The notes under the pieces were generated by a model that ran no database searches, had not been told where the DNA came from, and saw only the letters and a program-made list of their open reading frames with translations. Below are positions 22,133 to 47,670 of a stretch of 64,000 nt of DNA, one piece after another. This DNA is from Vicinamibacterales bacterium (GTDB lineage: Bacteria; Acidobacteriota; Vicinamibacteria; Vicinamibacterales; UBA8438). Position 1 is the stretch's first letter. Each line of letters begins with the position of its first letter. A program made the position numbers and the translations under genes. Where the stretch lies: contig OZ244838.1 in NCBI GenBank assembly GCA_965220695.1, positions 1,308,951-1,372,950 of the forward strand. The letters run 5' to 3'.

Positions 22133-22172
22133 TCCGGTTCGCCGGTGCTGCGCCGGCTCGACGCAGCGTCAT
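22133..22172. repeat. 40-bp direct repeat, left copy (partner at 32316..32355)
   Basis: TCCGGTTCGCCGGTGCTGCGCCGGCTCGACGCAGCGTCAT matches the partner at 37/40 positions in the same orientation. Confidence 0.8.
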
Positions 22173-22204
22173 TGGCCCAGCGTCATGCAGACGCCGCGGA
22201 CTGC

Positions 22205-22459
22205 CTAGTCCGCTCGGTCCAGCCACGCCCGCATCAGGTTCTTGATTTGCGTCTGGTACCGGATGTTCAATCGCGCCGCCTTCGCCTTGAACGCTGTCAG
22301 GAGGTCGTCCGGGACTCTGAGGCTGATGGGACGGGCGGGGCCGGGCCGCCCGCCGCCGTGCAGCAGCCGGAAATCCTCCAGGAAGCGCGCGATTTCCTCG
22401 TGGGTCATCTCGCGGCAGCGGGCGAGGTGCGCGTCCGGGAACCGCTGTACAGGTCTCAT
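22205..22459 (-). CDS. BrnA-like ribbon-helix-helix antitoxin
   Basis: ATG 22459 overlaps the stop of the NTase gene (ATGA). 'ISLRVPDDLLTAFKAKAARLNIRYQTQIKNLMRAWL' matches the BrnA/CopG-type C-terminal RHH. Confidence 0.65.
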   Translation of the reverse strand: MRPVQRFPDAHLARCREMTHEEIARFLEDFRLLHGGGRPGPARPISLRVPDDLLTAFKAKAARLNIRYQTQIKNLMRAWLDRAD

Positions 22460-22920
22460 CGGAGCTTCTCCAGCGCCGCGGCGTCCTCCGTGTCCTGCGG
22501 GCGTCCACTGCGCCGCTTCATCTCGATCAGGTCGTCGATGGAAAGCACCGGAACGACGCATTCAGCCAATACCATGCGCGTGGTCCGCTTGTTCGTGAGA
22601 TCGTAGGTGATGACGATGTCCACCTGCTCTGACGCATCGTCCGGGTTGTAGAAGTTCCAGGCGACGAGGTTGCGCCGGTCGATGTACTCGTCACGAAAGG
22701 CGAACACATCGTCAGCCGAGATCGGCAGCCTGGAGACGAGGCCCAGTCCCGTCAGGGCGCGTTCCGCCGACACGAGCGCGGCGCGGCTCCAGTCGAGCGC
22801 GATATCGATGTCCATCGTCCCGCGCACGGCGCCGTGCAACGCGACCGCATAGCCGCCGACGACGGCGTACCGCACGTCCGCGTCGTTCAGCGCGGTGCAT
22901 ACCCGCACCAGTACCGTCAT
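22456..22920 (-). CDS. Minimal nucleotidyltransferase-fold protein
   Basis: 154 aa. 'VRYAVVGGYAVALHGAVRGTMDIDIAL' carries the GG..(n)..DxD NTase signature. It is translationally coupled to the BrnA-like gene. Confidence 0.6.
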   Translation of the reverse strand: MTVLVRVCTALNDADVRYAVVGGYAVALHGAVRGTMDIDIALDWSRAALVSAERALTGLGLVSRLPISADDVFAFRDEYIDRRNLVAWNFYNPDDASEQVDIVITYDLTNKRTTRMVLAECVVPVLSIDDLIEMKRRSGRPQDTEDAAALEKLR

Positions 22921-22926
22921 CGATGC

Positions 22927-22944
22927 AGTATATACGGTATATAC
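22927..22944 (-). promoter_or_regulatory. AT-rich promoter/operator: two tandem 8-bp palindromes GTATATAC
   Basis: 'GTATATACgGTATATAC' sits at 22928-22944, directly upstream of the NTase ATG (22920). On the coding strand a TATACT hexamer ends 6 nt before the ATG. Confidence 0.35.
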
Positions 22945-24026: not shown

Positions 24027-25646
24027 ATGATGCCCATACCACGAATGCATTCCGCGAACCGGTCAATCCTGCTCGGTGTTGTCGTTCTGGCGCTGACCGC
24101 GCTCTTCAGCGCGCCACCTGCCGGGGCGCAGACGGCGGACGAGGAATTGCGGGATCTCCGTGTCAAAGCGGAGCAGGGCGATGCTGCTGCGCAGTTCATC
24201 CTCGGGTTGACGTACCAAGTGGGGCTGGGCGTTCCGCAGGACGATGTTGAGGCGGTGCGCTGGTTTCGTCTGGCCGCCGAGCAGGGTCATGCTGCTGCGC
24301 AGTTCAAACTCGGACTTATGTACGGGGAGGGGCTGGGCGTTTCGCAGGACGACGTTGCGGCGGTGCGCTGGTTCAGGCTGGCGGCCGAGCAGGGTCATGC
24401 CCGAGCGCAATTCAATCTCGGGGTCCGTAAAAGTTTCGGTATGGGCATTCCGCAGAACGACGTCGAAGCGGTGCGCTGGTATCGTCTGGCGGCCGAGCAG
24501 GGTCATGCCAGTGCGCAGTTCAACCTCGGGGTCATGTACGCCAACGGGGAGGGTGTCCCGCAGGACGACGGTGCGGCGGTGCGCTGGTATCGTCTGGCGG
24601 CCGAGCAGGGTGATGCCGCAGCGCAGCTCAATCTTGGGGCGCAGTACGGCAGGGGTCAGGGGGTACCGCAGGATTACACCGAGGCCCTGCGCTGGTACCG
24701 GCTGGCGGCCATGCAAGGCAGTGTAACCGCCCAGAGTAATCTTGGATTGTATTACGCAAACGGCACGGGCGTTCTACAGGATGACGTAGTGGCGCACATG
24801 TGGCTCAACTTGGCCGCCTCCCGGTCAACCGGTGAGGATCGCGAAGAGCGTATGAACTGGCGCGATGAAGTGGCCGAACGGATGACGCGTGCGGATCTCA
24901 GCGAGGCGCAGCGATTAGCGCGGGAATGGCAACCCGATCAATCCGCGGCTCCTGCGGCGCGGGCAGCGAACCCGGCTGGTCGCCTGCCCGGCGACGGGCG
25001 CCCTTCGGACCGTGGCCCGGCCGACAGAGTGTCGACCGGATCCGGTTTTTTTGTCAGCGAGCTGGGTCATGTTCTTACAAATGCGCACGTGGTGCGCGAC
25101 TGCACCGAGGTGCGCATCCCTCCCGGTGACCCCGTCCTAGTCGCCGCGCGCGACGATTCCAGCGATTTGGCGCTGCTCCAAGGGCGATCGGACCGAAGTG
25201 GCGCGGTTGCGGCGTTCCGCGAGGGAAGAGGTATTCGGCCCGGCGCGGATGTGGTCGTGATCGGCTACCCGTTGCGCGGCGTCGTCTCTTCCGAACCGTC
25301 CGTGACGTTGGGCAACGTCAGCGCGCTGGCCGGTCCCGGTGACGACCGGCGCCTGTTCCAGATGACTGCGCCCGTACAACCGGGAAACAGCGGAGGGCCC
25401 GTACTGGACGGGGCCGGCCGCGTCGTCGGCGTGACTGTGTCCAAGCTCGACGCCCTGGAGATCCTCCGAGTCACCGGCGACATTCCGCAGAACGTCAACT
25501 TCGCTGTCAGTGCCGGAACCGCGCGTGCCTTTCTCGACGCCGAAGGCGTGCCCTACGAGACGGCGCCGTCCGACAACCTGCTGGCGGCGGACGTCGTCGC
25601 CGCATCGGCACGGAGCTTCACCGTGCTCGTTGAGTGCCGGAAGTGA
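24027..25646 (+). CDS. Secreted Sel1-repeat / trypsin-like (S1) serine protease fusion
   Basis: It has a signal peptide, six Sel1 units ('AEQG.A.AQF.LG..Y..G.GV.QD...AVRW(F/Y)RLA') and a C-terminal 'GSGFFVS..GHVLTNAHVV....QPGNSGGPVLD' chymotrypsin-fold protease. Confidence 0.8.
   Translation: MMPIPRMHSANRSILLGVVVLALTALFSAPPAGAQTADEELRDLRVKAEQGDAAAQFILGLTYQVGLGVPQDDVEAVRWFRLAAEQGHAAAQFKLGLMYGEGLGVSQDDVAAVRWFRLAAEQGHARAQFNLGVRKSFGMGIPQNDVEAVRWYRLAAEQGHASAQFNLGVMYANGEGVPQDDGAAVRWYRLAAEQGDAAAQLNLGAQYGRGQGVPQDYTEALRWYRLAAMQGSVTAQSNLGLYYANGTGVLQDDVVAHMWLNLAASRSTGEDREERMNWRDEVAERMTRADLSEAQRLAREWQPDQSAAPAARAANPAGRLPGDGRPSDRGPADRVSTGSGFFVSELGHVLTNAHVVRDCTEVRIPPGDPVLVAARDDSSDLALLQGRSDRSGAVAAFREGRGIRPGADVVVIGYPLRGVVSSEPSVTLGNVSALAGPGDDRRLFQMTAPVQPGNSGGPVLDGAGRVVGVTVSKLDALEILRVTGDIPQNVNFAVSAGTARAFLDAEGVPYETAPSDNLLAADVVAASARSFTVLVECRK
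24168..24815 (+). repeat. Six tandem 108-bp coding repeats (Sel1 units)
   Basis: A 36-codon periodicity is visible at DNA level, e.g. GCGGTGCGCTGGT(T/A)TCGTCTGGCGGCCGAGCAGGGT recurring. Confidence 0.8.
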
Positions 25647-26007
25647 TCCCCGAGCCGCCCCTGGCTGCAATATCCGAGAACTCGTATCACGAGAGGAACC
25701 ATGGCGGACCGGTCGCGCCGCGTGCGGGCGCGGCGTGACCGTGATGGAAACCGCCGTACGCAGGACGCGCCGCGATCAGCCGCGGAGCGGATGTCGATTT
25801 GTGCAGCCGCACGCATTTTTTCCTTGACAGCGATCTGACGGCCGACGTGCTCGCGGTCGGGGATGCCGGCTACAGGGGCGCTCAGACCGGCAGAGCGGCG
25901 CGCTGCGGCCCGCGGCCGGACCGGGCGATCGAAACCGACCCTTGCCCCGGGAACGACCCGCAGAGACGCGCTCAACCCGTTGTAAAACAGGGGCTTACAA
26001 TGGATCC

Positions 26008-27780
26008 ATGAGCATCGCATCAGACCTGTACGACACGGACATCCCTGCCCCCAATCCGCGATCCGTGGCGGTGGGCTCACCCGCCTTGCACGGCGCGGCG
26101 TCACCGCCCACGCCGCCGGACGCGGCGACCCGGCCGACAGCGCGCGGCGCGCTGACCCTTGCGTCACCGGCGCACGCCACCGCCATCGACATCTCGACGC
26201 CCGCGGTCCCGCCGCCGGTCATCACCGACCCGATGTCCCACGAAGCGCACCATGCGGCGGTCTCCCGGCACCGCGCGGAGGCGGTGCGTCTCGGCGACGA
26301 CATCGCCGAGTTGTCGGCCCGCATCCAGGCCGCGACCTACGAGCTGCTCGTGCTGATTCGCGCCTTCGACGAGCGGGAGGGGTGGGAGGGGTGCCAGTCG
26401 TGCGCGCACTGGCTGAACTGGCGCACCGGGCTCAAGCTGGGCGCCGCCCGTGAGAAGGTGCGGGTGGCGCGCGCGTTGGGCGCCCTGCCGCTGTTGAGCG
26501 ACGCGATGCAGCGCGGGCAGATCTCCTACTCGAAGGTGCGCGCCCTGACGCGCGTGGCGACCCCGGCCAACGAACGCCGTCTGCTCGACTTCGCGCTGTG
26601 CGCGCCGGCGTCCTATGTCGAACGGTTGGCGCGGGCGTGGCGCCGGGTCGACCGGGCCATCGAGGCGGCCGATGACCAACGGCGGCAGACGCGGCGGCAC
26701 CTCAACACCTGGGTCGACGACGACGGGATGGTCGTCATCCGCGGCCGGTTGTCCCCCGAGGTGGGCGCGGTGGTGCGGCGGGCGCTCGAGGCGGCGAGCG
26801 ACCGCTTGCGCACGGAGGTGGCCGCGGCCGACGCCGCCGAGACCAGCACGGTCCAACGCCAGGCGGATGCGTTGGGACTGGTGGCCGAGAGCGCCTTGGC
26901 GGCCGACCTCGACCGGGGGACGGCGGGCGACCGCTATCAGGTCGTGCTGCACGTCGAGGCGGAGACGCTCCAGGCCGACGCGGCGGCGCCCGCATCGCAC
27001 GTTTCCGCGGAAACGTCGCGCGACGCGAAAGCGAGGGAAGCGAGGGTTTCCGAGGAGACGCCTCCCGGCGCGGCGGCGCCCGCAACGCACGTTTCCGCGG
27101 AAACGTCATCCCACGCGGTCGGGTCCACCGGACGTGGGTGTCCGGACGCAGGCGGTCGCCCCGTCGCGGCGACCTCTTCCGCTCGGATGGCCGGCCACGC
27201 CGCCCTGGAAGATGGCGACGGGCTGCGCGTCTCCGCGGAAACGTCCCGCCGCGTGGCCTGCGATTCCGCGGTGGTCGTCCTGCAGCATACAGCGGACGGC
27301 GCGATCCTCGATGTCGGGCGCAAGACGCGCACCATCCCGCCGGCGCTGCGGCGGGCGCTGCAGGCGCGCGACCGCCAGTGCCGGTTCCCGGGCTGCCACG
27401 CCCGGCGCTGCGATGCGCATCACGTTCACCACTGGGCCGACGGCGGCGCGACGCGGCTCGACAACCTCGTGCTGCTCTGCCGGCGGCACCACCGTGCGGT
27501 CCACGAAGAGGGCTTCACGGTTCGGCTGGACCCGGCTGGAGATGCCGAGTTCTGCTGGCCCGACGGCCGGCCGTTTCCTGCGGTGCCGCCTCCACCCCGC
27601 TGGAGCGGCCCACCGCTGGCGCCGACCGACGCCCGCCTGGCCGCGTCCGCCATCGTGATCGACGCCGACACGGCCACGCCGGACTGGCACGGTGAACGCC
27701 TCGATGTCGGATTTGCGATTGACGTCATGTGGATACCGCGCACGGCCCCCGGCGCCGAGGCCAGTGGCGCACCGACGTAG
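26008..27780 (+). CDS. DUF222 / HNH endonuclease (REP13E12-type)
   Basis: ATG 26008. The N-terminus is DUF222-like ('LSARIQAATYELLVLIRAFDEREGW..'). The C-terminus is 'GRKTRTIPPALRRALQARDRQCRFPGCHARRCDAHHVHHWADGGATRLDNLVLLCRRHHRAVHE'. Confidence 0.8.
   Translation: MSIASDLYDTDIPAPNPRSVAVGSPALHGAASPPTPPDAATRPTARGALTLASPAHATAIDISTPAVPPPVITDPMSHEAHHAAVSRHRAEAVRLGDDIAELSARIQAATYELLVLIRAFDEREGWEGCQSCAHWLNWRTGLKLGAAREKVRVARALGALPLLSDAMQRGQISYSKVRALTRVATPANERRLLDFALCAPASYVERLARAWRRVDRAIEAADDQRRQTRRHLNTWVDDDGMVVIRGRLSPEVGAVVRRALEAASDRLRTEVAAADAAETSTVQRQADALGLVAESALAADLDRGTAGDRYQVVLHVEAETLQADAAAPASHVSAETSRDAKAREARVSEETPPGAAAPATHVSAETSSHAVGSTGRGCPDAGGRPVAATSSARMAGHAALEDGDGLRVSAETSRRVACDSAVVVLQHTADGAILDVGRKTRTIPPALRRALQARDRQCRFPGCHARRCDAHHVHHWADGGATRLDNLVLLCRRHHRAVHEEGFTVRLDPAGDAEFCWPDGRPFPAVPPPPRWSGPPLAPTDARLAASAIVIDADTATPDWHGERLDVGFAIDVMWIPRTAPGAEASGAPT
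26981..27108. repeat. Two 38-bp direct repeats 90 bp apart, each with the perfect 18-bp palindrome ACGTTTCCGCGGAAACGT
   Basis: The palindromes lie at 26999-27016 and 27089-27106. Degenerate versions are at 27227-27244 and 27987-28004, and perfect copies recur at 30752-30769 and 30842-30859. Confidence 0.85.
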
Positions 27781-27904
27781 ACCAGGGTCTGCGATGCCTG
27801 CGATCCGGCTCAAGCGCACGAACAAGCTGATAGCGCAAGAGCCTGCCGTCGCTTCAGGGGGAAGTGGACCGGTGCCGGCACCCATGCAGTCATGCGGGCG
27901 TTCT

Positions 27905-28082
27905 GATGCAGGCGGTCGCTCTGTCGCGGCGACCTCTTCCCCTCGGATGGCCGGCCACGCCGCCCTGTAAGATGCAGACGGGCTGCGCGTCTCCGCGGAA
28001 ACGTCTCGCGGCGCGAGAGCGAGGGCAGCTAGGGTTTCCGAGGAGACGCCTCCGGGCGCGGCGGCGCCCGCGAGCTGGGCCG
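27905..28082 (+). repeat. Rearranged mini-copy of the DUF222-HNH internal segment
   Basis: 27905-28000 aligns to ~27145-27240. The next part aligns to ~27010-27082, the reverse of the order in the gene. The junction lies exactly at CCGCGGAAACGTC. Confidence 0.7.
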
Positions 28083-28331
28083 TGCGCAGGCGTGACGCGC
28101 GCTGCCGGACAGCCGCTTCCGTCCGACCGAGGCGCGCGGAAAGCTCGCGCAGACGCTGGCCACCGTCTTCGTAGTCGAGCGCCGCAGCGAGCCGCACGGC
28201 CGTGTCCTCACTCTCCGTCCGATGGCGCGCCATCATCAACGCCCTACGTCAGCGGTGTGTTGGTGCTGTTCTTCGGGTGAACGCGACGTGCGAAGTCACT
28301 CGCACTGCGTGTCGCGTTCTTGACCACTCTG

Positions 28332-29294
28332 TCAGCGGTCCGGGTCTTGTGTGCGCCCGGGTCGCCTGTCGGTGATGGCGGGTGGAGCCGTTCCGCTTTC
28401 CCATACCTTCTGGTGGCCTACGCCGGTTCGGCAGGCGTCGTGGAGTGCTTCGCGGATGCGGCTCGCACCGAAGGCGCTGGCGCCGACGTAGTGGCCGACG
28501 CCGCTCTCGTCGAACGTTCGGTCGATTTCGCCGGGGGCTATTGCGGTTCGGTGGATTGCACCGCTGTTGGTGCGGCATTCGATGATGGCCTGTTCTCCTT
28601 CGGTCCAGATGGCGACGTGGCGGTATACGGCTCCCCGCAGCGCGGCGCTCGCTTGTGTGCCAAGGGTGGCGGGGTCGTCGATCTCGCCGGCGCCGACGAG
28701 CTGCATGCGGGCATCGCGCTCGAGGGTCGCGTCGGCGTGTTCCAGCGTGAGCGCCGTGACTTCCGTGTCGTACCGGCTACGGCAGTTGACCGCGGTGGCC
28801 AGGGCCTTGGGGTCGTGCTCGTTGGCCTTGATCAGGTCGAAGACGTCTCGCACCAGTGCGTCGTCGGCTCTCTCGAGCTTGCCGTGGAGTATCTGGGAGC
28901 TGTCGAGGACCATTGCCGGGTGTCCGTTGACGAGTGCCTCTCGCTCGGCGCCTGACGGGATCGGGCTCAGTTGGACGAGGTCTACTTCGCCAGCGTCGAA
29001 CTCGATGATCCACTGACTTTCGTGGTACGTCGCTGTGTCCCCCAGGTCCCCCATCGTCTGACGGAACGGGTTCCCGGGTTCTGCGAGGTCTCGCAGGGGC
29101 ACGTCGCGGCCCACGGCGAGGTCGAGGTCGAAGCTGTCGCGGTGTTTCCAGCGGGCGGCCAGCGTGGCGCCGCCGCCGAGCTGGAAGCGGTACGGTCCGC
29201 CGTGCAAGTTCGCCAGCGCGTCGGCTATCGCCTTGTGCACGCGATTCCACAGGTGTCCGCCCGTCGTGGAGAGGGTCAGCTCTTCACGGCCCAT
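28332..29294 (-). CDS. AbiEii / DUF1814-type nucleotidyltransferase toxin
   Basis: The track ORF is over-extended. ATG 29294 gives 320 aa containing 'FQLGGGATLAARWKHRDSFDLDLAV', the GG..(n)..S.DxD signature of AbiEii-family NTases. Confidence 0.7.
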   Translation of the reverse strand: MGREELTLSTTGGHLWNRVHKAIADALANLHGGPYRFQLGGGATLAARWKHRDSFDLDLAVGRDVPLRDLAEPGNPFRQTMGDLGDTATYHESQWIIEFDAGEVDLVQLSPIPSGAEREALVNGHPAMVLDSSQILHGKLERADDALVRDVFDLIKANEHDPKALATAVNCRSRYDTEVTALTLEHADATLERDARMQLVGAGEIDDPATLGTQASAALRGAVYRHVAIWTEGEQAIIECRTNSGAIHRTAIAPGEIDRTFDESGVGHYVGASAFGASRIREALHDACRTGVGHQKVWESGTAPPAITDRRPGRTQDPDR

Positions 29295-29725
29295 CGGTTG
29301 ATCTTGTGGATTCGGGGGGCGCAGGCGAAGTTGGCGCGGTGCAGTGCAGCGACGAGCTGGCGCAAGGTGTACGCGTGTTGGACCCACGCTTCGATGAGCT
29401 CGGCTGCTGTTGCCTCGGCGCCCCACATTCGGATGATGCTGGCTTGCCGGTCGGTCGGTTGCTCGGCACGCACGGCGTCGTAGAACTCGTCGGCTGTTGG
29501 GCGCCGCTTCCAGCCGGCGCAGCCGCTGGCGAGTCGGCGCTGGACAGCACGGGCGTGGCGACCGCGCGGCGTGCCGGGCGCGCACAGTCGGCGGAAGTCG
29601 TCTTCGGCCGCCGGGCGGTCGCTGAAGGCGCCTGGCGGCAGCAGCATAGCCGGTCGCCTGGGGTTCCGTTCGGCTTTGCGCCGCCCGCTCTCGGTGCGGG
29701 TGTCGAAGGTGGCAAGCGTCAACAT
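29276..29725 (-). CDS. Hypothetical protein upstream of AbiEii (possible cognate antitoxin)
   Basis: 149-aa ORF whose end overlaps the AbiEii start by 19 nt. I see no AbiEi-like wHTH, and the N-terminal half is Arg-rich and may not be coding. Confidence 0.3.
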   Translation of the reverse strand: MLTLATFDTRTESGRRKAERNPRRPAMLLPPGAFSDRPAAEDDFRRLCAPGTPRGRHARAVQRRLASGCAGWKRRPTADEFYDAVRAEQPTDRQASIIRMWGAEATAAELIEAWVQHAYTLRQLVAALHRANFACAPRIHKINRWAVKS

Positions 29726-29884
29726 GACGATTCACGTTACCGTACTCAGCAGGTCGCGTCCTGATCGTGCTCGATGCGTGATGGGCGTGTCGTTGACGGG
29801 GCTGGGTGCGCCGAAACCACCGGCCGCGGACGGGCGCGGTGTCGATTTGGCGAGATCGCGGTTGCGTTTTCATCGGGCTGGTTC

Positions 29885-30133
29885 TCAAGCAGCGTTCGGT
29901 TTCACTTGGCGAGAAACTGCAGGATCCTCGAACGTCAGAGCCGCCGTCGCGAGCACGGTCCCGACCATCCAGCGGATGAGCCTGGTTTTCCCGTTTGGCG
30001 ATCTCGGTGTGGACCTCGGCGAGTCCGGCCCTGAACTGGGCGGCCGTGACGTTGGTCGCCCCCGCTCGGCGAGCTTCCGCATGGCGTTGGCGATGACGTC
30101 GGCCTGGTCGCGGTCAATGCCCCCGGCGGTCAA
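29885..30133 (-). CDS. DUF1640-like small protein, possibly frame-disrupted
   Basis: The C-terminal 'TRLIRWMVGTVLATAALTF' resembles the DUF1640 membrane tail. The middle of the ORF is Pro/Ser/Arg junk, while an alternative frame reads 'ATNVTAAQFRAGLAEVHTEIAKRE'. Confidence 0.25.
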   Translation of the reverse strand: MTAGGIDRDQADVIANAMRKLAERGRPTSRPPSSGPDSPRSTPRSPNGKTRLIRWMVGTVLATAALTFEDPAVSRQVKPNAA

Positions 30134-30173
30134 CTCCTAGGCGACCGAGAGCGTGTCGAGCAGGGCCTGAACC

Positions 30174-30542
30174 CTACGGCCGGCCGGAGTCGCGGACGAC
30201 GATGCGCTGCCGGTTACGGGAGACGACCTCGGTGATCGTAGCCGTCCAAGAGCCGCCCCGGCTGTCGGTGATGCTGATCGGGGTGCCGCGCGGATCCTCC
30301 GCGAGCGCGGCGACACCGGGTCCGTCGAGCACGGCGCCCCAGCCGTCGCCGAGCTTGCAGGGTTTCCAGCCGGCGAGGGGTTCTCTGTTCGGCGTCTCGA
30401 GGTCGGCCGGGAACTCGCGGTCGAGTGCTGCCGCGATGACGTCACGAGCCCAGGCGCTGACGTGCCGTTCATCGCGAAGTCGCGCGAGGCGGTCGCGCAG
30501 TTCGGGTTCGATGCGGATCTGGAACACGTCTGTACGAAACAT
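30174..30542 (-). CDS. CopG/RHH-like N-terminal domain protein
   Basis: ATG 30542. 'FQIRIEPELRDRLARLRDERHVSAWARDVIAAALDRE' follows the RHH pattern. The C-terminal ~75 aa are unrecognised. Confidence 0.4.
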   Translation of the reverse strand: MFRTDVFQIRIEPELRDRLARLRDERHVSAWARDVIAAALDREFPADLETPNREPLAGWKPCKLGDGWGAVLDGPGVAALAEDPRGTPISITDSRGGSWTATITEVVSRNRQRIVVRDSGRP

Positions 30543-30674
30543 GACACGACACAGCAGCACGCCACGTCGAGCCTTCCAGCGGGGTCGCTCAGGTCCGGCG
30601 ATCCTCGGGGAACGCCTCCAGTGCGCCAGTGCCGGCCACGCCCCGCCAGCTGCCCGGCGTGGTGACCGCGTGAC

Positions 30675-31125
30675 GGCGGCCGACCGCTATCAGGTCGTGC
30701 TGCACGTCGAGCCGGACACGCTCCAGACCGACGCGGCGGCGCCCGCATCGCACGTTTCCGCGGAAACGTCGCGCGACGCGAAAGCGAGGGCAGCGAGGGT
30801 TTCCGAGGAGACGCCTCCCGGCGCGGCGGTACGCGCATCGCACGTTTCCGCGGAAACGTCATCCAACGCGGCCAAATCCGCCAAACGTGGGTGTCCGGAC
30901 GCAGGCGGTCGCCCTGTCGCCGCAACCTCCGCCGCTCGGATAGCCGGCCATGCCGCACTGGAAGACGGCGACGGACTTCGCATGTCCGCGGACACCTCTC
31001 GCCGGCAGGCGTGCGATGCTGCGGCGGTCGTCATGCAACATGCGCCGGACGGCGCGATTCTCGACATCGGGCGCAAGACCCGAACCATCCTCCGGCGATC
31101 CGGCGGGCGCTCCTTGCGCGGGACC
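30675..31125 (+). pseudogene. Central fragment of a second DUF222-HNH gene
   Basis: About 450 bp align colinearly with 26925-27385 of the intact gene, including both palindrome repeats. It lacks the DUF222 N-terminus and the reading breaks just before the CRFPGC/HNH motif. Confidence 0.7.
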
Positions 31126-31284
31126 AGTGTGAACATGACGACGCGGAGGTGATGTCGCAATCGCGACATACAACCTGGACGGTGCCAGAGATTATGGCGA
31201 ACCCGCCCGCTGCCCACGTCGCCTGCGGGCATTCCGGTTGTCTTCCGAGACAGCGTAAGACACCCTGCCAGAGAAACGGTCTGG

Positions 31285-31442
31285 CAGCCCGTGGTGCAAG
31301 CCCCGCTGCATTCGAACGGCGCTGCATCCCGGCTGCCGGCGTTGCTCCTCGGTCACACATGGCCCAATGTGCTCCCTCGTCGCGCCTTGTCAGCCGGGCG
31401 CACCGCCATTCTCGGTGCAACGCGGGGTTTCACCACGGGCTG
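31285..31442 (+). mobile_element. MITE-like repeat, copy C (shortest, 158 bp)
   Basis: 'CAGCCCGTGGTGCAAGCCCCGCTGCATTCGAACGGCGCTGC...CCCAATGTGCTCCCTCGTCGCGCCTTGTCAGCCGGGCG...TCTCGGTGCAACGCGGGGTTTCACCACGGGCTG'. It overlaps the 3' end of the HEPN gene. Confidence 0.8.
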
Positions 31443-32130
31443 CTAGGTGGTCCATCATGTTGTCAAGAAATATCGGCACGAGAACGTCGAGAATCGCGGC
31501 GCCGGTCTGGGCTTGTCTGCGATTCATGAAGCCACCCGCGGTGGCGAATCCATGCATGAGCTGGTTGCGCAGCACGTACAGACGGCTGAAAACCTTGTCC
31601 AGCAGCTCTTTCAAAGGCTTACGGAGCTCCTTCACGGAGACGTTGTAATAGGCGTCGCTACCGTACTTGAGAAGCTTATCTACGTCCTTGATATCACGAT
31701 CGTATTGCTCCCACATCGTTTCGCGGTCGCGCTTGTCCCAGAATCTCCGGAACACGTACTCATTGGAGATGAGATCAGAGATCCAGGACTGAAGGTCGCT
31801 GCTGACGACTGTATAGATGCGGCGGCAGTCGAGTGCGATCAGAAGCCTGAGGAAGTCACAGTAACGGTCCGGTTCCGAGCGTCGATCGTGATCGGATTCC
31901 ATACGTGGATCGCGATCGATCGCGTAGGCGGCGTTGAACGCTATCCACAAGAAGATACACCTCGCATGGTTGCGATACTGGTCCTGCGTCGTGTCTTCGT
32001 CACATGCCCGCTTGAACCAGCTCAGGGATCGGTGGAGACGCTGCCTGAGGGGGTGATCCTTGTTCAACGTCGACTTCAACGTCTCGAACTTGTTCGTCAA
32101 AACCTCGTAGGTCGGCGGTTCGTTCGACAT
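31390..32130 (-). CDS. HEPN-like protein (RNxxxH motif), low-GC, stand-alone
   Basis: 246 aa, all-helical in appearance. 'RLYVLRNQLMHGFA' carries an R-x4-H motif in RN...H form. AGGTGA lies upstream of ATG 32130. The last ~18 codons and the stop are encoded by MITE copy C. Confidence 0.55.
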   Translation of the reverse strand: MSNEPPTYEVLTNKFETLKSTLNKDHPLRQRLHRSLSWFKRACDEDTTQDQYRNHARCIFLWIAFNAAYAIDRDPRMESDHDRRSEPDRYCDFLRLLIALDCRRIYTVVSSDLQSWISDLISNEYVFRRFWDKRDRETMWEQYDRDIKDVDKLLKYGSDAYYNVSVKELRKPLKELLDKVFSRLYVLRNQLMHGFATAGGFMNRRQAQTGAAILDVLVPIFLDNMMDHLAARGETPRCTENGGAPG

Positions 32131-32133
32131 GGC

Positions 32134-32355
32134 TCACCTGTAACGTTCACGCAACAACCGGTTACGACAACACACGAGAGTTTCCGCGTCGTGCACACGC
32201 TGGTGCCAGAACGGCGACACCATCCGCACGGCGTAGTCGTCGGCCAGAATCGGCGCGTGGTGCCAGCGCCAGTGATGCGCACGGATGGCGGCCGCGAGCG
32301 TCGCCGTCCGGCTCGTCCGGTTCGCCGGCGATGCGCCGGCTCGACGGAGCGTCAT
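32134..32355 (-). pseudogene. N-terminal fragment resembling LCM-type class I SAM methyltransferase
   Basis: 'SRTATLAAAIRAHHWRWHHAPILADDYAVRMV' follows the 'SRTA..A..RA.H.....P.(I/L)..D..A' N-terminal pattern of that family. It stops after 73 codons, 3 nt before the HEPN start. Confidence 0.35.
32316..32355. repeat. 40-bp direct repeat, right copy (partner at 22133..22172)
   Basis: TCCGGTTCGCCGGCGATGCGCCGGCTCGACGGAGCGTCAT. Confidence 0.8.
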
Positions 32356-32662
32356 GAACACAGCATACAGGCGCCGCCGGCGAGGTGTGTTCGCTTGACG
32401 CTGGTCCGCCGCTCATCGTCTGCATCGGACCTGCACCAGCCCTCCGGGCGACGTATCCGGACTTCATCGCCGACACGAAGAAGTTGCCCGTCAGACGTCT
32501 GCGCCATCGTCTGAATGCTGACGGTCGTGGGCAGCTTCGCCGTGGGCTCGGGCGTGGGACTCGGCCTCGGCGGTCGCGTTGGCGGTAGAATGGTCGGCGA
32601 GGAGACTGACCCCATGACATCCATGACACCGCACGCGTGCAACCTTGGCCGACTGGCCGTAG

Positions 32663-32820
32663 CAGCCCGCGGTGAAACCCCGCGTTGCACCGAGATTGGC
32701 GCTGCGCCAGCGTGGCAAGGCGCGACGAGGGAGCACATTGGTGCATGTGTGACCGAGGAGCAACGCCGCCACGCGGGATGCAGCGCCAATCGAATGCAGC
32801 GGGGCTTTCACCGCGGGCTG
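32663..32820 (-). mobile_element. MITE-like repeat, copy D (inverted relative to the others)
   Basis: Its reverse complement aligns end to end with copy C. The outer end supplies the ATG at 32794 used by the TonB-dependent receptor ORF. Confidence 0.8.
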
Positions 32821-35400
32821 CTAGCCGCTGTGCTGTTGTCGTTGTCGGCGACAGCCGCGGTGACGGCGGCCGTCCAGACGACCGGGGCCATCGAAGGCGC
32901 GGTCGTCGACGCGAACGGCAACCCGTTGCCCGGCGTGGTGGTGACGGTGGCCGGCCCCGGCGGGCGCGAGGAACGTGTCACGGGCGCCGATGGAACCTAC
33001 GCCGCTGCCGGTCTGGCGGCCGGCGACTATGTCGTCACCGCGATGCTGCCGGGCTTCGAGACCGTGGAGACGTCGGTCTCCGTCGGGACAGGCGCCACCG
33101 CAACGGTCCCGATCGTCCTGCAGATCGCGCGGTTGCTCGAAACGATCAGCGTCGTGTCGGAGGAGCCCCGGACCTTCGCGAGCAACATCGTCTCCCAACC
33201 GATGCGGCTGCAACAGTCGAACATCACGAGCGTGACGTCGGTGGTGGACAACCTTCCGGGCGTCTCCATCCAGGAGGGGGACGCGTACGGCTTCGACGAC
33301 TGGTCGAGCAATGTCGCCGTCCGCGGCTTTCAGGTGACCATCAGCGAGGCGCAGATCGGCACCACCATCGACGGGCTGCCGAACGGCACGTCCGACTACT
33401 TCAGCGGCGCCAAGGCGAACCGGTTCATCGATCCGATGAACCTCGGGGGGGTCGAGGTGTCGCAGGGAACGGCCGACATCGCCTCGCGGTCGGTCGAGGC
33501 GCTGGGCGGCACCTTCAACTACCTGACGGACGATCCGGCGGCGGAGCGGACCTACACGGCGTCGACCACCATCGGCGAGAACGACGGCAAACGGTTCTCC
33601 ATGCGGGTCGACACCGGGCCGTTGTTCGGCACCGAGACCCGCGCCTGGATCTCGGCGGTCCGTCAGGAGGCGACCGACTGGGTGCAGGGGTCGGCGCGCA
33701 ACGAGCGCGAGCATGTCGCCGCCAAGCTGGTCTCGTCACGCGGACGCCTCGATCTCACCAGCTACGTCTCGTACGACAGCATCCACGAAGACACCTACCA
33801 GCGGCTCTACAGCGACGCCAACTTCAGGGCCAACCCGCGCTGGGACCGCCTGGTCGGCGACTGGCCCGGCGTGCCGTATCTGAACCAGTTCTACCGGCCT
33901 GGCTGGCAGACGCGGCGGAACAATACATTCGCCTACCTGAAGGCGGACTGGTCGTTCAGCGACGTCACCTCGCTGAACCTGGGCGCCTATTTCCATCGCA
34001 ACCGGGGCCGCGGCGACTGGCTGCCTCCCTACATCGCCGACGTCACCGACGACGGCGGCGGACCGGAATCGGAGCTCATGGGAAGGGCAGCGGTACAGGG
34101 CGGCGCGCAACTCGGGCTGATCCGCTTCGTGAACCGGGACGGCGCCGCTGTCGGACCGACGCCCGGGTGCACGTCGTCCTACATCTTCAACTATTACGGC
34201 TCGGGCGGCCCGGCGGTGGACCCGGCGTGCCACCCGGGCGCCACCGCGGTGCAGTCGTACCGCCACAGCCACTACGGGAAGGACCGCATCGGCGTGACGC
34301 TCGACGAAGAGTGGTTCACGACCGTCGGCGCGGCTGGCAGCACACTGCGCGCCGGCATCTGGTACGAGGACTCGCGGCGCGATCTTGGCCGCGACTGGCA
34401 CCAGATGCTGGATCCGACGCTGAGCTTCAAGTGGAACGAGCAGGCCTACTGGCACCAGTACGAGTGGGATTTCCCGCAGCACGTCTTCAAGTGGTACATG
34501 GAGGAGACGATCTACGCTGGCCCGTTCGCTCTGAGTGGCGGCCTCAAGCAGTTCCTGGTCGGCGTGTCGCGCGACGACCTGTTCGACGTCGACCCGGAAC
34601 TGGCGGTCGATTCCGATTCGAAGCTGCTCATCTCCGGCGGCGTCACGTATGAGACCCCGGTCGAGGGTCTGGACCTGTTCGCCGGCTACGCCGAGAATTT
34701 CAAGGCCATCAGCAGCACGCTGCTCGAGGTGCCGGGACGCAGCCTCGATGCGCTCAAGCCCGAAACCGCCTCGAACATCGATGTCGGGCTGCAGTATTCG
34801 GGAGAGCGGGTTGCGCTGGGCGCCACCTGGTACACCATCGATTTCCAGAACCGGATCTTCTACCTCGGTCCGCAGACGCCGGCCGGTCCCAACTATCTCA
34901 TCCCGGGCGGCGGCGCCTACTTCAACGCCGGCGGCATCGACACGAGCGGCGTCGAGTTCTCTGCGACCGTGCAGTTGCCACGCCAGACATCGTTCTACAC
35001 CGCCTACACGTTCAACGACTCGACGTATCTCGGGAGCGGCGATCCGCTTGTCGACGCGAACCAGGGTATCGTGGCGGGTACCGATGTCACCGGCGTGCCG
35101 GACCGGCTGTGGGTCGTCTCGCTCGACCGGACCGGCCCCCTCGGCACGGGGCTGACCGCCAAGTACACGTCGCCGCGGCGCGTCAGCCTGACGTCGGACT
35201 GGTACGCGGACGCCTACTGGCTGGTGGACGCCTATCTCAGCTTCTCGGGCGCGGCGTTGAGTGATCTGCTGCGGTCGACGGAGTTCTCGATCGTGGCGAA
35301 CAACCTGTTCGACAAGGCCTATCTCTCGGCCATCACCGAGAACGCGGCCTGGCTCGGGGCACCGCGGACGATTTCGATGACCGCCACCGTCTCGTTCTGA
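32794..35400 (+). CDS. TonB-dependent receptor with carboxypeptidase-regulatory-like N-terminal domain
   Basis: The signal peptide is 'MQRGFHRGLLAAVLLSLSATAAVTAAVQ'. 'GAIEGAVVDANGNPLPGVVVTV' is CarboxypepD_reg-like. The barrel ends '..ISMTATVSF'. The track ORF start at 32515 is an upstream extension through the MITE. Confidence 0.85.
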   Translation: MQRGFHRGLLAAVLLSLSATAAVTAAVQTTGAIEGAVVDANGNPLPGVVVTVAGPGGREERVTGADGTYAAAGLAAGDYVVTAMLPGFETVETSVSVGTGATATVPIVLQIARLLETISVVSEEPRTFASNIVSQPMRLQQSNITSVTSVVDNLPGVSIQEGDAYGFDDWSSNVAVRGFQVTISEAQIGTTIDGLPNGTSDYFSGAKANRFIDPMNLGGVEVSQGTADIASRSVEALGGTFNYLTDDPAAERTYTASTTIGENDGKRFSMRVDTGPLFGTETRAWISAVRQEATDWVQGSARNEREHVAAKLVSSRGRLDLTSYVSYDSIHEDTYQRLYSDANFRANPRWDRLVGDWPGVPYLNQFYRPGWQTRRNNTFAYLKADWSFSDVTSLNLGAYFHRNRGRGDWLPPYIADVTDDGGGPESELMGRAAVQGGAQLGLIRFVNRDGAAVGPTPGCTSSYIFNYYGSGGPAVDPACHPGATAVQSYRHSHYGKDRIGVTLDEEWFTTVGAAGSTLRAGIWYEDSRRDLGRDWHQMLDPTLSFKWNEQAYWHQYEWDFPQHVFKWYMEETIYAGPFALSGGLKQFLVGVSRDDLFDVDPELAVDSDSKLLISGGVTYETPVEGLDLFAGYAENFKAISSTLLEVPGRSLDALKPETASNIDVGLQYSGERVALGATWYTIDFQNRIFYLGPQTPAGPNYLIPGGGAYFNAGGIDTSGVEFSATVQLPRQTSFYTAYTFNDSTYLGSGDPLVDANQGIVAGTDVTGVPDRLWVVSLDRTGPLGTGLTAKYTSPRRVSLTSDWYADAYWLVDAYLSFSGAALSDLLRSTEFSIVANNLFDKAYLSAITENAAWLGAPRTISMTATVSF

Positions 35401-37548: not shown

Positions 37549-39345
37549 ATGTCCATGACTTCGATGCCCGATCGGCCACTCTCCCTTGCGCGCGCTCTGA
37601 TCGTGCCGGTCGCCGTACTGACCGTCCTGGCCCTGCTCCCGCGGCCGGCGACGGGGCAGACGTCGTCGTCCTCCGGGTTCGTGCCCGTGACGGATGCCAT
37701 GCTCCAGGATCCGGCCCCGGGAGACTGGCTGACATGGCGCCGCACCCTGGACAGTTGGGGCTACAGCCCGCTCGATCAGATTACGCGAGACAACGTGGGC
37801 GAGATCAGGATGGTCTGGTCGCGGGCGCTCGCCCGCGGGCGCCAGGAAGGCACGCCGCTGGCCTACGGCGGTGTCCTGTACATGCCGCAGGCGAGCGACG
37901 TCATCGAGGCGATCGATGCCGTGACCGGCGACCTGATCTGGGCGCATCGCCGCGACCTGCCGGACGACGTCTACGACCACGTGGGCGGCAATTCGCGCAA
38001 CAACCGCAACATCGCGATCTACGACCGGTTCATCATCAACACCAGCGACGACAGCTATGTCTTCGGGCTCGACGCCGCGACCGGGGAGATCGCCTGGGAG
38101 ACGCAGCTTTTCGATTACCGGACCACGCCGGTGGGGCACAGCTCGGGACCGATCATCGCCGACGGCAAGGTGATTTCGGGACGGAGCTGCCGGCCGCGCG
38201 GCGGGCCCGAGTCGTGCGTCATCATCGCGCACGATGCACGCACCGGACAGGAGCTGTGGCGGCGCCGGACGATCCCGGCGCCGGGGGAGCCGGGCGACGA
38301 GACCTGGGGCGGCGTGCCCTACGAGGAACGCGTACACGTCGGCGCCTGGATGCCGGCCAGCTACGACCCCGAGCTGCGGCTGATCTTCCAGGGCACGTCG
38401 GTCACCTCGCCGGCGCCCAAGTTCATGCTCGGCGGCATCGACAATACGCACCTCTACCACAACTCGACGCTGGCGCTCGACGTCGACACGGGCGAGATCC
38501 GCTGGTACTACCAGCACCTGAACGATCACTGGGACCTCGATCATCCGTTCGAGCGTCTGCTGGTCGACACGGTGGTCGCACCGAACCCCGACGCCGTGAG
38601 CTGGATCAATCCTCGGCTGCGGCCCGGCGAGGTCCGCAAGGTGATGACCGGCATCCCGGGCAAGACCGGCCTGGTCTATACGCTGGACCGTGAAACGGGC
38701 GAGTTTCTCTGGGCGACCCCCACGGTGGCCCAGAACGTCATCAGCGACATCGACGGCGCGACGGGCGCGGTGACCGAAAACGCCGAGGTGATCTTCAGCG
38801 CGGAGGGGCAGCAGGTGCTGGCCTGTCCCAACATGCACGGCGGGAAAGACTGGGAAGCGGGCGCCTACAGCCCGCTGACGAACACGATGTACTATCCGCT
38901 GCGCAACATGTGCCAGCGCCTGCTGGCGACGACGGCGCCTGACGCCTCTCACCGCATCTACGCGCTCGCGGTCCGGCATGAGCTCGCGCCCGGAACGGAG
39001 CAACTGGGCGCGGTGTACGCGATCTCGGCGGAGACCGGCGAGACGAAGTGGCTGCACGAGCAGCGCGCGGCGACGCTGTCGCTCGTGGCCACCGGCGGCG
39101 GGCTCGTCTTCGGGGGCGACGCGAACGGGCGCTTCCGGGCTTTCGACCAGGAGACGGGCGAGGTGCTGTGGGAGATCAACCTCGGCTCGCCGGTGTCCGG
39201 GTTCCCCATCAGCTACGCGGTCGACGGACGCCAGTACCTGGCCGTGGGCACCGGCGGCGCCGCGACGACACCCAGCTTCCTGCAGCTCACGCCGGAACTG
39301 CGCCCGAGCAACGGCAACAACCTGTTCGTGTTCGCGTTGCCTTGA
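37549..39345 (+). CDS. PQQ-dependent dehydrogenase (alcohol-dehydrogenase-like beta-propeller)
   Basis: ATG 37549 with a signal peptide. 'FVPVTDAMLQDPAPGDWLTWRRTLDSWGYSPLDQITRDNVGEIRMVW' is the typical quinoprotein ADH N-terminus. Confidence 0.8.
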   Translation: MSMTSMPDRPLSLARALIVPVAVLTVLALLPRPATGQTSSSSGFVPVTDAMLQDPAPGDWLTWRRTLDSWGYSPLDQITRDNVGEIRMVWSRALARGRQEGTPLAYGGVLYMPQASDVIEAIDAVTGDLIWAHRRDLPDDVYDHVGGNSRNNRNIAIYDRFIINTSDDSYVFGLDAATGEIAWETQLFDYRTTPVGHSSGPIIADGKVISGRSCRPRGGPESCVIIAHDARTGQELWRRRTIPAPGEPGDETWGGVPYEERVHVGAWMPASYDPELRLIFQGTSVTSPAPKFMLGGIDNTHLYHNSTLALDVDTGEIRWYYQHLNDHWDLDHPFERLLVDTVVAPNPDAVSWINPRLRPGEVRKVMTGIPGKTGLVYTLDRETGEFLWATPTVAQNVISDIDGATGAVTENAEVIFSAEGQQVLACPNMHGGKDWEAGAYSPLTNTMYYPLRNMCQRLLATTAPDASHRIYALAVRHELAPGTEQLGAVYAISAETGETKWLHEQRAATLSLVATGGGLVFGGDANGRFRAFDQETGEVLWEINLGSPVSGFPISYAVDGRQYLAVGTGGAATTPSFLQLTPELRPSNGNNLFVFALP

Positions 39346-47449: not shown

Positions 47450-47670
47450 CAGCCCGTGGCAAGAGCCCCGCTGAATTCTGCGGTTTCACGCGGAATTCAG
47501 CCTTCCCCGCTGAATTCTGCGGTTTCACGCTGAGTTCTGCTGGGCCGCGTTGTTCCGGCTGATGAACAGGGCAACCACAAGGGTTGCCCCTACGGGTATT
47601 TTCCCTCGTCACGCCTTGCACAGCGGGCGCATCGCCGATCTCGGTGCTACGCGCGGTTTCACCGCGGGCT
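47450..47670 (+). mobile_element. MITE-like repeat, copy E (expanded variant)
   Basis: Left end 'CAGCCCGTGGCAAGAGCCCCGCTGAATTC', with an internal tandem duplication 'CCCCGCTGAATTCTGCGGTTTCACGC' x2 and a GGGCAACC/GGTTGCCC hairpin. The right end is 'TCTCGGTGCTACGCGCGGTTTCACCGCGGGCT'. Confidence 0.7.

What the first reader, a model, noticed from the sequence alone, without database searches (positions are those of the whole stretch)
31390..32130. Stand-alone HEPN-like predicted RNase without an obvious partner, with a MITE-encoded C-terminal tail
The 246-aa product has an RN...H motif ('VLRNQLMHG') near the C-terminus of an apparently all-helical protein, the hallmark of HEPN RNases (Cas13, Csm6, Abi and TA toxins). 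HEPN toxins normally come with an antitoxin (MNT, RHH and others). Here the only adjacent ORF is a 73-codon stub resembling the N-terminus of an LCM-type methyltransferase, ending 3 nt before the HEPN start. The final ~18 codons ('LAARGETPRCTENGGAPG') and the stop are supplied by MITE copy C, so the native C-terminus has been replaced. I do not recognise the HEPN subfamily.
Basis: partly seen in the sequence, partly recalled or inferred. Interest (0 to 1): 0.7.

Follow-up and report, generated by a model that had tools for sequence, protein, structure and literature searches.

The report
MITE-truncated copy of uncharacterised HEPN-like gene
This gene belongs to a widespread, unstudied family of small helical proteins that carry the catalytic signature of HEPN RNA-cutting toxins, but the copy here has lost its conserved tail to a small mobile-element insertion and is probably a damaged allele.

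Summary
A 246-codon ORF lies at 31390-32130 (-). It carries RNQLMH at residues 188-193. Its last 18 codons and stop come from a ~160-nt MITE. A 75-codon ORF ends 3 nt upstream.

The protein belongs to a large accessory family (1636 hits; 839 clusters at 50% identity). In 98 aligned members R188, N189, Q190, H193 and G194 are invariant, as is a second motif, W..FNAAY.

HEPN assignment is probable, not proven:
- No Pfam, NCBIfam or PADLOC model reaches threshold.
- 26 of 98 members give sub-threshold hits to PF18735 (RiboL-PSP-HEPN), always over the motif.
- The only PDB sequence hit is the ApeA HEPN motif (E about 0.1).
- The motif sits at the end of the penultimate long helix, as in HEPN.
- Foldseek on two confident AlphaFold models found no HEPN fold.

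No partner is universal. A WYL-WCX regulator lies directly upstream in about a fifth of 80 loci. XRE-HTH fusions and tandem double-module proteins also occur.

Three related contigs show the empty MITE site and a 250-258-aa protein. The displaced native 3' end survives at 31192-31284. The window copy therefore lacks the near-invariant P-x3-W-G-x3-Y-P-V tail.

Verdict: a truncated member of an uncharacterised HEPN-like subfamily. Modest interest.

The parts
31447..32130 (-). Native part of the HEPN-like gene, codons 1-228. It holds all the family-invariant residues.
   Evidence: ORF list. 94% nucleotide identity to the intact gene in L081. Family alignments.
31552..31569 (-). Codons 188-193, R-N-Q-L-M-H. 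This is the putative catalytic Rx4H motif, at the end of the predicted helix 166-192.
   Evidence: Sequence read. Invariant in 98 sequences. Motif found in 260 of 265 proteins. Secondary structure.
31921..31938 (-). Codons 65-70, F-N-A-A-Y-A. This is the second invariant motif, in the predicted helix 53-69 (candidate HEPN helix 2).
   Evidence: Invariant columns. Secondary structure.
31390..31446 (-). MITE-encoded replacement tail: 18 codons (LAARGETPRCTENGGAPG) plus the TGA stop.
   Evidence: Divergence from P0002 and P0003 after residue 228. The segment lies inside the repeat.
31281..31446 (.). MITE copy C. About 158-162 nt are inserted. Terminal inverted repeats are CAGCCCGTGGTG...CACCACGGGCTG. 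The flanks read CTGG and CTAG on the + strand (CTAG and CCAG in gene orientation), an apparent 4-bp duplication with one mismatch.
   Evidence: Repeat families D6, D8, D12 and inverted pair I1. Empty sites in L081, L087 and L089. Alignment of the copies.
31192..31284 (-). Displaced native 3' end: 30 codons (PDRFSGRVSYAVSEDNRNARRRRGQRAGSP) plus TAA. Joining it back restores a 258-aa protein.
   Evidence: Translation and comparison with L081, L087 and L089.
32134..32361 (-). 75-codon upstream ORF (the 'stub'). It ends 3 nt before the HEPN-like ATG, and its last codons contain an AGGTGA Shine-Dalgarno-like sequence. Probably a gene remnant.
   Evidence: TIGR00027 at E = 0.052. Only two short homologues. 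Its first 13 codons are duplicated at 22133-22196 (D17).
32660..32824 (.). MITE copy D, inverted relative to copy C. It is absent from relative L081.
   Evidence: Inverted pair I1, 165 nt, 90% complementary. L081 comparison.

Best explanation
The ORF is a MITE-disrupted allele of a gene from a widespread, uncharacterised family of 220-260-residue all-helical proteins. I read the family as a divergent branch of the HEPN superfamily of metal-independent RNases.

Inferred mechanism:
- The first helical hairpin (helices about 27-44 and 53-69) carries R31, R34, W38 and the W62..FNAAY motif.
- The second hairpin (helices 166-192 and 201-227) carries R188-N189-x3-H193 at the end of its first helix.
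- Together they form the four-helix HEPN core. Residues about 70-165 form a large helical insert between helices 2 and 3.
- Two protomers would pair so that the two Rx4H motifs form one composite RNA-cleaving site.

The gene is accessory. It occurs in genomic islands and on conjugative plasmids, and has no obligatory protein antitoxin. Control appears to act on transcription or on the protein itself. The candidates are a WYL-WCX regulator directly upstream in part of the family, a fused XRE helix-turn-helix domain in some members, or the helical insert acting as an intrinsic regulatory module. The family therefore most likely acts as a stress- or invader-triggered toxic RNase of the abortive-infection type.

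In this window a ~160-nt MITE landed after codon 228. It swapped the last 30 residues, including the near-invariant P-x3-W-G-x3-Y-P-V segment, for 18 element-encoded residues. This copy is probably inactive or weakened.

Shown here: the ORF, the motif invariance, the MITE insertion with its empty sites, the lack of a universal neighbour, and the WYL association. Inferred: the HEPN fold, dimerisation, RNase activity, a defence role, and loss of function.
For: Family and motifs:
- 1636 homologues at E <= 0.001. 839 clusters at 50% identity.
- Invariant residues in 98 sequences: R34, W38, W62, F65, N66, A67, A68, Y69, W131, R183, L187, R188, N189, Q190, H193, G194, Q206.

HEPN link:
- PF18735 HEPN_RiboL-PSP is the only recurrent Pfam hit: 26 of 98 members, best E = 6.6e-4. 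The next family is hit by 2 members.
- 8 of 10 further members hit it in one register, always covering the RNxxxHG stretch.
- One member aligns over 124 residues to profile positions 44-186 of 191.
- The single HEPN-related hit in the PDB sequence searches is the ApeA HEPN motif, RLYRQRNIVLHGG.
- RefSeq names plasmid-borne members 'HEPN domain-containing protein'.
- Anantharaman et al. [quoted passage not shown] The AlphaFold secondary structure shows exactly this.

Dimer hint:
- P0121 and P0190 hold two complete modules in one chain.

Context:
- A WYL-WCX regulator lies directly upstream on the same strand in 17 of 80 genome loci (24 loci have one nearby).
- A divergent RecB-like nuclease plus SF1 helicase occurs in 16 loci.
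- XRE-HTH fusions exist.
- One relative has a UvrD helicase overlapping the start by 4 nt. Two have an overlapping metallo-beta-lactamase-fold gene downstream.
- 23 plasmids carry a member, 14 of them conjugative.

Truncation:
-.
Against: - Foldseek with two confident models found no HEPN structure, nor any other. The best E-values were 0.66 and 0.87 against the PDB and 0.23 against BFVD, with TM about 0.2.
- No HEPN-clan Pfam model reaches its gathering score. The best is 18.7 bits against a cut-off of 28.4. The matches are confined largely to the motif stretch.
- No PADLOC model matches the family. No homologue was found in 50,697 phage records.
- The defence role rests on guilt by association in a minority of loci. 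Most immediate neighbours are unrelated housekeeping genes, spread over 113 Pfam families among 118 neighbours.
- Loss of function is not shown. All invariant core residues are intact. dN/dS of the window allele against intact alleles (0.37-0.68) is not clearly above that among intact alleles (0.43-0.52).
Confidence: 0.6

Rival explanations
1. The MITE-tailed 246-aa protein is still a functional stand-alone HEPN toxin or effector, and the new tail is tolerated. This is essentially the first reader's reading.
For: - All 18 family-invariant core residues and all predicted core helices up to residue 227 are intact.
- An identical 246-aa protein occurs in at least two independent assemblies.
- dN/dS against intact alleles is below 1.
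Against: - The lost segment holds positions conserved in at least 90% of 98 homologues: P229, W, P238 and V239.
- A WG...Y..P tail is found in 219 of 265 family proteins.
- The insertion is a plain transposition into the coding sequence, with the native 3' end left behind.
Confidence: 0.25
2. The gene forms a two-gene toxin-antitoxin pair with the 75-codon upstream ORF, which would be the antitoxin. Alternatively it pairs with a nucleotidyltransferase, as in HepT-MntA systems.
For: - The stub ends 3 nt before the start codon. It is kept in relatives L081 and L089 and covered by the homology in L087, with dN/dS 0.38 on very few changes.
- In relative L089 a 154-aa nucleotidyltransferase (PF10706-like) and a CopG-like gene lie directly upstream of stub plus HEPN.
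Against: - The stub has only two short homologues in 5.8 billion proteins and matches no antitoxin domain.
- It is N-terminally shortened in L089. Its first 13 codons are duplicated at a rearrangement junction at 22133-22196.
- No small conserved neighbour and no nucleotidyltransferase recurs among 80 family loci.
- In the window the NTase-CopG pair lies 9 kb away, at 22192-22944.
Confidence: 0.07
3. The family is not a nuclease. It would be a helical regulatory or ligand-binding protein whose conserved R/N/H and FNAAY residues bind a nucleotide or a partner, and the HEPN resemblance would be motif-level convergence.
For: - No fold match to any HEPN structure.
- All profile matches are below threshold.
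- Most loci have ordinary metabolic neighbours.
Against: - The one recurrent profile hit and the one HEPN-related PDB hit are both HEPN active-site regions.
- The motif has the canonical polar residue after R and the canonical position at a helix end followed by a loop.
- Tandem double-module proteins fit the obligate-dimer logic of HEPN.
Confidence: 0.08

Closest known systems
RiboL-PSP-HEPN (Pfam PF18735; Anantharaman et al. 2013, distantly related to AbiD/AbiF)
   Same: It is the only Pfam family hit recurrently, always over the ...RLYxLRNxxxHG... stretch and the following helix. Both are all-helical and both conserve Rx4H with a polar residue after R.
   Different: Scores of 13-19 bits stay below the 28.4-bit gathering cut-off. 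The window protein itself gives no hit at E <= 1. No L-PSP fusion and no ParB operon was seen. This family has its own invariant W..FNAAY motif and a conserved P-x3-W-G-x3-Y-P-V tail.
ApeA (Apea-like HEPN, PF18739; PDB 9HXL)
   Same: The motif region resembles ApeA's HEPN motif: F-x-RLY-x-x-RN-x-x-x-HGG-(S/A)-T. ApeA is a single-gene effector with no antitoxin and dimerises through its HEPN domains.
   Different: ApeA is about 550 aa, with N-terminal and Mid domains and a ligand pocket, and forms decamers or dodecamers. This family is 220-260 aa. The match is 29-34 residues at E about 0.1. The PADLOC scans listed no ApeA or other HEPN-effector model.
HepT-MntA (HEPN-MNT) toxin-antitoxin systems
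   Same: A small HEPN-type protein with an Rx4H motif on mobile or accessory DNA.
   Different: No adjacent minimal nucleotidyltransferase in the window or in 80 family loci. The protein is about twice the size of HepT and has a large insert.
Defence genes controlled by BrxR/CapW/DriD-type WYL regulators (Picton et al. 2022, PMC9122601)
   Same: In 17-24 of 80 loci, and on Sphingobium and Leisingera conjugative plasmids, an HTH-WYL-WCX regulator lies directly upstream or nearby, together with a RecB-like nuclease-helicase.
   Different: The window copy and its close relatives have no WYL gene. Regulation of this family by a WYL protein has not been tested.

Membership tests
HEPN superfamily | Conserved Rx4-6H motif with a small or polar residue (N, D or H) after the arginine | tested here: met
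   R188, N189 and H193 are invariant in 98 sequences. The motif is present in 260 of 265 proteins, and 256 of the motifs found read RN.
HEPN superfamily | All-alpha domain with the motif at the end of core helix 3 and the start of the loop to helix 4, and inserts between helices 2 and 3 (PMC3710099) | tested here: met
   AlphaFold2 secondary structure shows helix 166-192 ending in R188..H193, a loop, then helix 201-227, with a helical insert at about 70-165.
HEPN superfamily | Three-dimensional similarity to a solved HEPN domain | tested here: not met
   Foldseek with two models (pLDDT 89) against the PDB and one against BFVD gave best E-values of 0.23-0.87 and TM about 0.2, with no HEPN entry. 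Foldseek is weak on long all-helical proteins with inserts, so this does not exclude the fold.
HEPN superfamily | Significant profile match to a HEPN-clan family | tested here: inconclusive
   PF18735 is sub-threshold in 26 of 98 members, best E = 6.6e-4, with a consistent register. HEPN_Apea was hit once at E = 0.17. The PDB ApeA motif scores E = 0.07-0.1.
HEPN superfamily | Metal-independent RNase activity from a composite active site in a dimer | not testable with these tools
   The only indirect hint is tandem two-module proteins P0121 and P0190.
Pfam PF18735 HEPN_RiboL-PSP | Score at or above the gathering threshold of 28.4 bits | tested here: not met
   The window protein gives no hit at E <= 1. 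The best family member scores 18.7 bits.
HEPN-MNT (HepT-MntA) toxin-antitoxin | Adjacent minimal nucleotidyltransferase gene in the same operon | tested here: not met
   None adjacent in the window. None recurs in 80 loci. One relative (L089) has an NTase and a CopG-like gene upstream, but this comes from a rearrangement. In the window the pair lies at 22192-22944.
Type II toxin-antitoxin module | Small adjacent gene conserved with the toxin and carrying a known antitoxin or DNA-binding fold | tested here: not met
   The stub has no domain hit and only two short homologues. There is no conserved small neighbour family-wide.
ApeA single-gene defence system | About 550-aa architecture with N-terminal, Mid and HEPN_ApeA domains, and a match to ApeA models | tested here: not met
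   Family members are 220-260 aa. No ApeA model appears among the PADLOC matches. The PDB match covers the motif only.
MITE (non-autonomous transposable element) | Short length, no coding capacity, terminal inverted repeats, several copies, and an empty site in relatives | tested here: met
   Five copies of 158-230 nt share the termini CAGCCCGTGG...CCACGGGCTG. Empty sites occur in L081, L087 and L089. The parent transposase was not identified.

The most novel reading that the evidence does not exclude
The family would be a new, self-contained single-protein immune or plasmid-competition effector. It would be a minimal HEPN RNase whose about 95-residue helical insert senses an infection or DNA-damage cue. 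In many alpha-proteobacterial plasmids and islands its expression would be gated by an ssDNA-sensing WYL-WCX regulator shared with a RecB-like nuclease-helicase. If so, roughly 800 protein clusters now labelled hypothetical would form an undescribed defence family, and the window shows one copy silenced by a MITE.
Probability: 0.25. Interest if true: 0.6.

Novelty: new member of a known kind. Interest (0 to 1): 0.35.

Why it matters
If the family is an active HEPN RNase, it adds a compact representative (220-260 aa), with no antitoxin, to the growing set of single-protein HEPN effectors such as ApeA and DARNA. It would also give a simple system for asking how such toxins are kept silent.

The recurrent WYL-WCX regulator and the natural tandem fusions offer direct experimental handles. 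For this window the practical message is smaller. The gene is a MITE-damaged allele in a heavily rearranged island, so it should not be annotated as an intact toxin. The empty-site comparison documents recent activity of the MITE family.

Tried and rejected
1. Direct family scans of the window protein gave nothing usable. Pfam found nothing at E <= 1. NCBIfam gave only aRF1 at E = 0.027, and PADLOC only AbiEi at E = 0.019; I treat both as noise. PHROGs found nothing meaningful.
3. A search for a universal partner among 80 genome loci, by all-against-all BLASTP of flanking ORFs at two stringencies and a Pfam scan of 118 nearest neighbours, found none. Apparent antisense 'families' were shadow ORFs of the WYL or HEPN genes.
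4. The stub as a methyltransferase remnant: TIGR00027 matches only at E = 0.052. The large protein search found no full-length relative. No full-length gene lies next to the second copy of its 5' end at 22133-22196, because that region belongs to a plus-strand HNH_2 gene.
5. Rfam and tRNA scans of the window found nothing, so there is no RNA-antitoxin candidate and no tRNA integration site. The sigma-70 promoter scan found none.
6. dN/dS as a test of pseudogenisation was inconclusive.
7. Contig L088 suggested a second disruption of the same gene: a partial duplication around a 470-nt insert, with a weak IS110 hit. It is a 4x-coverage metagenome contig, so I give it no weight.
8. Literature searches on RiboL-PSP, on WYL with HEPN, and on TM0106 found no paper describing this family.

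Full report
**1. Observation**

The ORF list shows a 246-codon ORF at 31390..32130 on the minus strand. Codons 188-193 (31552-31569) read R-N-Q-L-M-H within RLYVLRNQLMHG.

A longer ORF (355 codons, 31447..32514) runs on the opposite strand. The minus-strand frame is the real gene, because it has 1636 homologues at E <= 0.001 in the large protein collection. It also matches 839 clusters at 50% identity in the exhaustive HMMER search.

A 75-codon ORF (32134..32361, minus strand) stops 3 nt before the ATG. Its last codons contain AGGTGA, a plausible ribosome-binding site for the downstream gene.

**2. The MITE and the truncation**

Aligned with its closest relatives (P0002 at 88% and P0003 at 81% identity), the window protein is collinear up to ...FLDNMMDH (residue 228). 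After that it diverges completely. The relatives continue with PDRFSGRVPYAVSEDNRNA..RRGQRAGSP.

That missing tail is still in the window. It lies in frame at 31192-31284, ends in TAA, and sits just beyond a repeat at 31281-31446.

The repeat has four other copies in the window:
- about 7583-7791
- 11372-11565
- 32660-32824, inverted, 90% identical over 165 nt
- 47451-47680

The copies share the inverted termini CAGCCCGTGG...CCACGGGCTG and measure 158-230 nt.

Three related metagenomic contigs carry the gene uninterrupted: L081 (94% nucleotide identity), L087 and L089. Their homology jumps from window 31443 to 31284 with a 4-nt overlap. That fits an insertion of about 158 nt with a 4-bp target duplication, CTAG/CCAG in gene orientation, with one mismatch.

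Joining the two pieces restores a 258-aa protein of the same length as P0002. The native end was displaced, not deleted.

Across 98 homologues, the segment just after the last helix holds positions conserved in at least 90% of sequences: P229, a W, G233, P238 and V239. The consensus is P-x-x-D-W-G-x-P-x-Y-P-V. The window protein has lost this segment.

**3. What the family is**

No Pfam, NCBIfam or PADLOC model reports the window protein at a meaningful level. The family is nevertheless well defined. The invariant residues in 98 sequences are:
- R34 and W38 in the first long helix
- W62, F65, N66, A67, A68 and Y69 in the second
- W131
- R183, L187, R188, N189, Q190, H193 and G194
- Q206

An [LIVMF]Rx4H[GA] motif occurs in 260 of 265 family proteins, and 256 of the motifs found read RN.

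Evidence for a HEPN relationship:
- I scanned all 98 members against Pfam at E <= 1. PF18735 (HEPN_RiboL-PSP) was hit by 26 of them, best E = 6.6e-4. No other family was hit by more than 2.
- Among ten further members, eight hit PF18735 at 13-18 bits. The register is the same each time: the protein stretch ending near residue 190 aligns to profile positions up to about 171-177 of 191. This always covers the RNxxxHG region.
- One member aligns over 124 residues to profile positions 44-186.
- Profile searches of all PDB sequences, with the whole alignment and with the C-terminal 62 positions, return one HEPN-related hit. It is the HEPN motif of the antiviral protein ApeA (9HXL), F-RRLYRQRNIVLHGGST, at E = 0.07-0.1.
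- RefSeq already labels plasmid-borne members 'HEPN domain-containing protein'.
[quoted passage not shown] It also notes frequent inserts between helices 2 and 3 (PMC3710099).
- Two AlphaFold2 models (window protein and P0070; pLDDT 89, pTM 0.87-0.88) show exactly that layout. In the window protein, helices 27-44 and 53-69 come first, then a helical insert up to about 165. Helix 166-192 ends in the motif, followed by a loop and the final helix 201-227.

Evidence against:
Best E-values were 0.23-0.87 and TM about 0.2.
- All sequence evidence is sub-threshold and centred on the motif.

I therefore rate HEPN membership as probable (about 0.75), not demonstrated. The subfamily is undescribed in Pfam, and I found no paper on it.

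**4. Partners and context**

I fetched 80 genome loci spanning Alpha- and Gammaproteobacteria, Acidobacteriota, Dehalococcoidia, Binatia, Verrucomicrobiota and Bacteroidota.

All-against-all comparison of flanking ORFs found no universal neighbour. A Pfam scan of the 118 nearest neighbours hit 113 different families, many of them housekeeping.

Recurrent but partial associations do exist:
- An HTH-WYL-WCX regulator lies directly upstream on the same strand in 17 loci. Twenty-four loci have one nearby.
- An approximately 1100-aa protein lies divergently in 16 loci. It combines a Cas4/RecB-like nuclease, an RNase-H-like domain and an SF1 helicase.
- The same trio appears on conjugative plasmids of Sphingobium and Leisingera, where the large protein is annotated as a TM0106 family RecB-like nuclease.
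- In all, 23 plasmids carry a member, 14 of them conjugative. No phage record does.
- Among closer relatives, P0005 follows a UvrD-type helicase with a 4-nt overlap. P0006 and P0007 are followed by an overlapping metallo-beta-lactamase-fold gene.
- Some members carry an N-terminal XRE helix-turn-helix domain.
- P0121 and P0190 contain two complete modules in tandem. This fits the obligate dimerisation of HEPN domains.

WYL regulators are known to accompany defence systems and DNA-damage responses (abstracts of PMC9122601 and PMC10853764). Single-protein HEPN effectors without antitoxins are known, namely ApeA and DARNA. The absence of an antitoxin is therefore not anomalous.

**5. The window's own neighbourhood**

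The gene sits at the edge of a scrambled accessory region.
- Relative L081 has a tyrosine integrase about 1 kb downstream.
- Relative L087 has the DUF222-HNH gene directly downstream. It lacks about 3.1 kb that the window carries between partial copies of that gene.
- Relative L089 places a nucleotidyltransferase and a CopG-like gene directly upstream of the stub and the HEPN-like gene. In the window that pair lies 9 kb away, at 22192-22944.
- A 64-nt repeat (22133-22196 and 32316-32379) duplicates the first 13 codons of the stub, marking a recombination junction.

The stub has only two short homologues in 5.8 billion proteins. Its only domain hint is TIGR00027 at E = 0.052. Its dN/dS is 0.38, based on about 12 substitutions. 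I regard it as a remnant, not a partner.

**6. Selection**

dN/dS of the HEPN-like gene is 0.37-0.68 between the window and intact alleles, and 0.43-0.52 among intact alleles. The neighbouring TonB-dependent receptor gene gives 0.21. The gene evolves fast in this clade. The data do not show extra relaxation in the MITE-bearing lineage.

**7. Verdict**

The gene is a C-terminally truncated member of a widespread, uncharacterised, probably HEPN-type family. The family has no obligatory partner and shows defence-like associations in a minority of loci.

The family is moderately interesting as a candidate minimal single-protein HEPN effector. This particular copy is most likely a damaged allele.

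Noticed in passing
window 7583-7791, 11372-11565, 31281-31446, 32660-32824, 47451-47680: A MITE family of five copies (158-230 nt) shares the inverted termini CAGCCCGTGG...CCACGGGCTG. Copies C and D are inverted relative to each other and bracket the HEPN-like gene and the stub. Both are absent from relative L081. No parent transposase was identified.
   Followed up: partly
window 32660-32824 and 32794-35400: MITE copy D lies just upstream of the TonB-dependent receptor gene. A gene call in the same-strain contig L082 starts inside the MITE (868 aa), while relative L081 without the MITE has a 790-aa product. The element may alter the 5' end or promoter of that gene.
   Followed up: no
window 25942-27780 (+), 27896-28071, 30664-31125: A DUF222-HNH endonuclease gene has partial duplicate fragments. 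Relative L087 lacks window segment ~28013-31137 between the repeated pieces. That segment carries three ORFs with no Pfam or PADLOC hit (320, 124 and 128 aa).
   Followed up: partly
window 22192-22944 (-); L089 4245-4960: A 154-aa nucleotidyltransferase (PF10706-like) and an 84-aa CopG-like gene form a likely independent two-gene module. In relative L089 it lies directly upstream of the stub and the HEPN-like gene. A 64-nt repeat (22133-22196 and 32316-32379) marks the rearrangement junction.
   Followed up: partly
window 24060-24826: Six tandem copies of a 108-nt (36-codon) unit lie inside ORF 24027-25646, suggesting a repeat protein. Not analysed.
   Followed up: no
L088 1-1815: A low-coverage (4x) metagenome contig from a near-identical strain shows the HEPN-like gene partly duplicated around a ~470-nt insert. 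The chimeric product has a weak IS110 transposase hit. This could be a second disruption or an assembly artefact.
   Followed up: partly
window 37674-38362 and 63312-64000: Paralogous stretches (74-89% identity) lie in the region of the PQQ-dependent dehydrogenase genes, 25.6 kb apart.
   Followed up: no
L067 1125-5961; L091; L092: A conserved module occurs on alpha-proteobacterial plasmids and chromosomes. It consists of a ~1100-aa Cas4/RecB-like nuclease plus RNase-H-like domain plus SF1 helicase (TM0106 family), lying beside a WYL-WCX regulator gene and the HEPN-like gene; gene order and orientation differ between loci. I found no description of it as a system.
   Followed up: partly
P0121, P0190, P0239: Unusual architectures occur in the family. 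Two proteins hold tandem double modules. One 528-aa protein has a ~320-residue N-terminal domain with no Pfam match fused to the HEPN-like module.
   Followed up: partly
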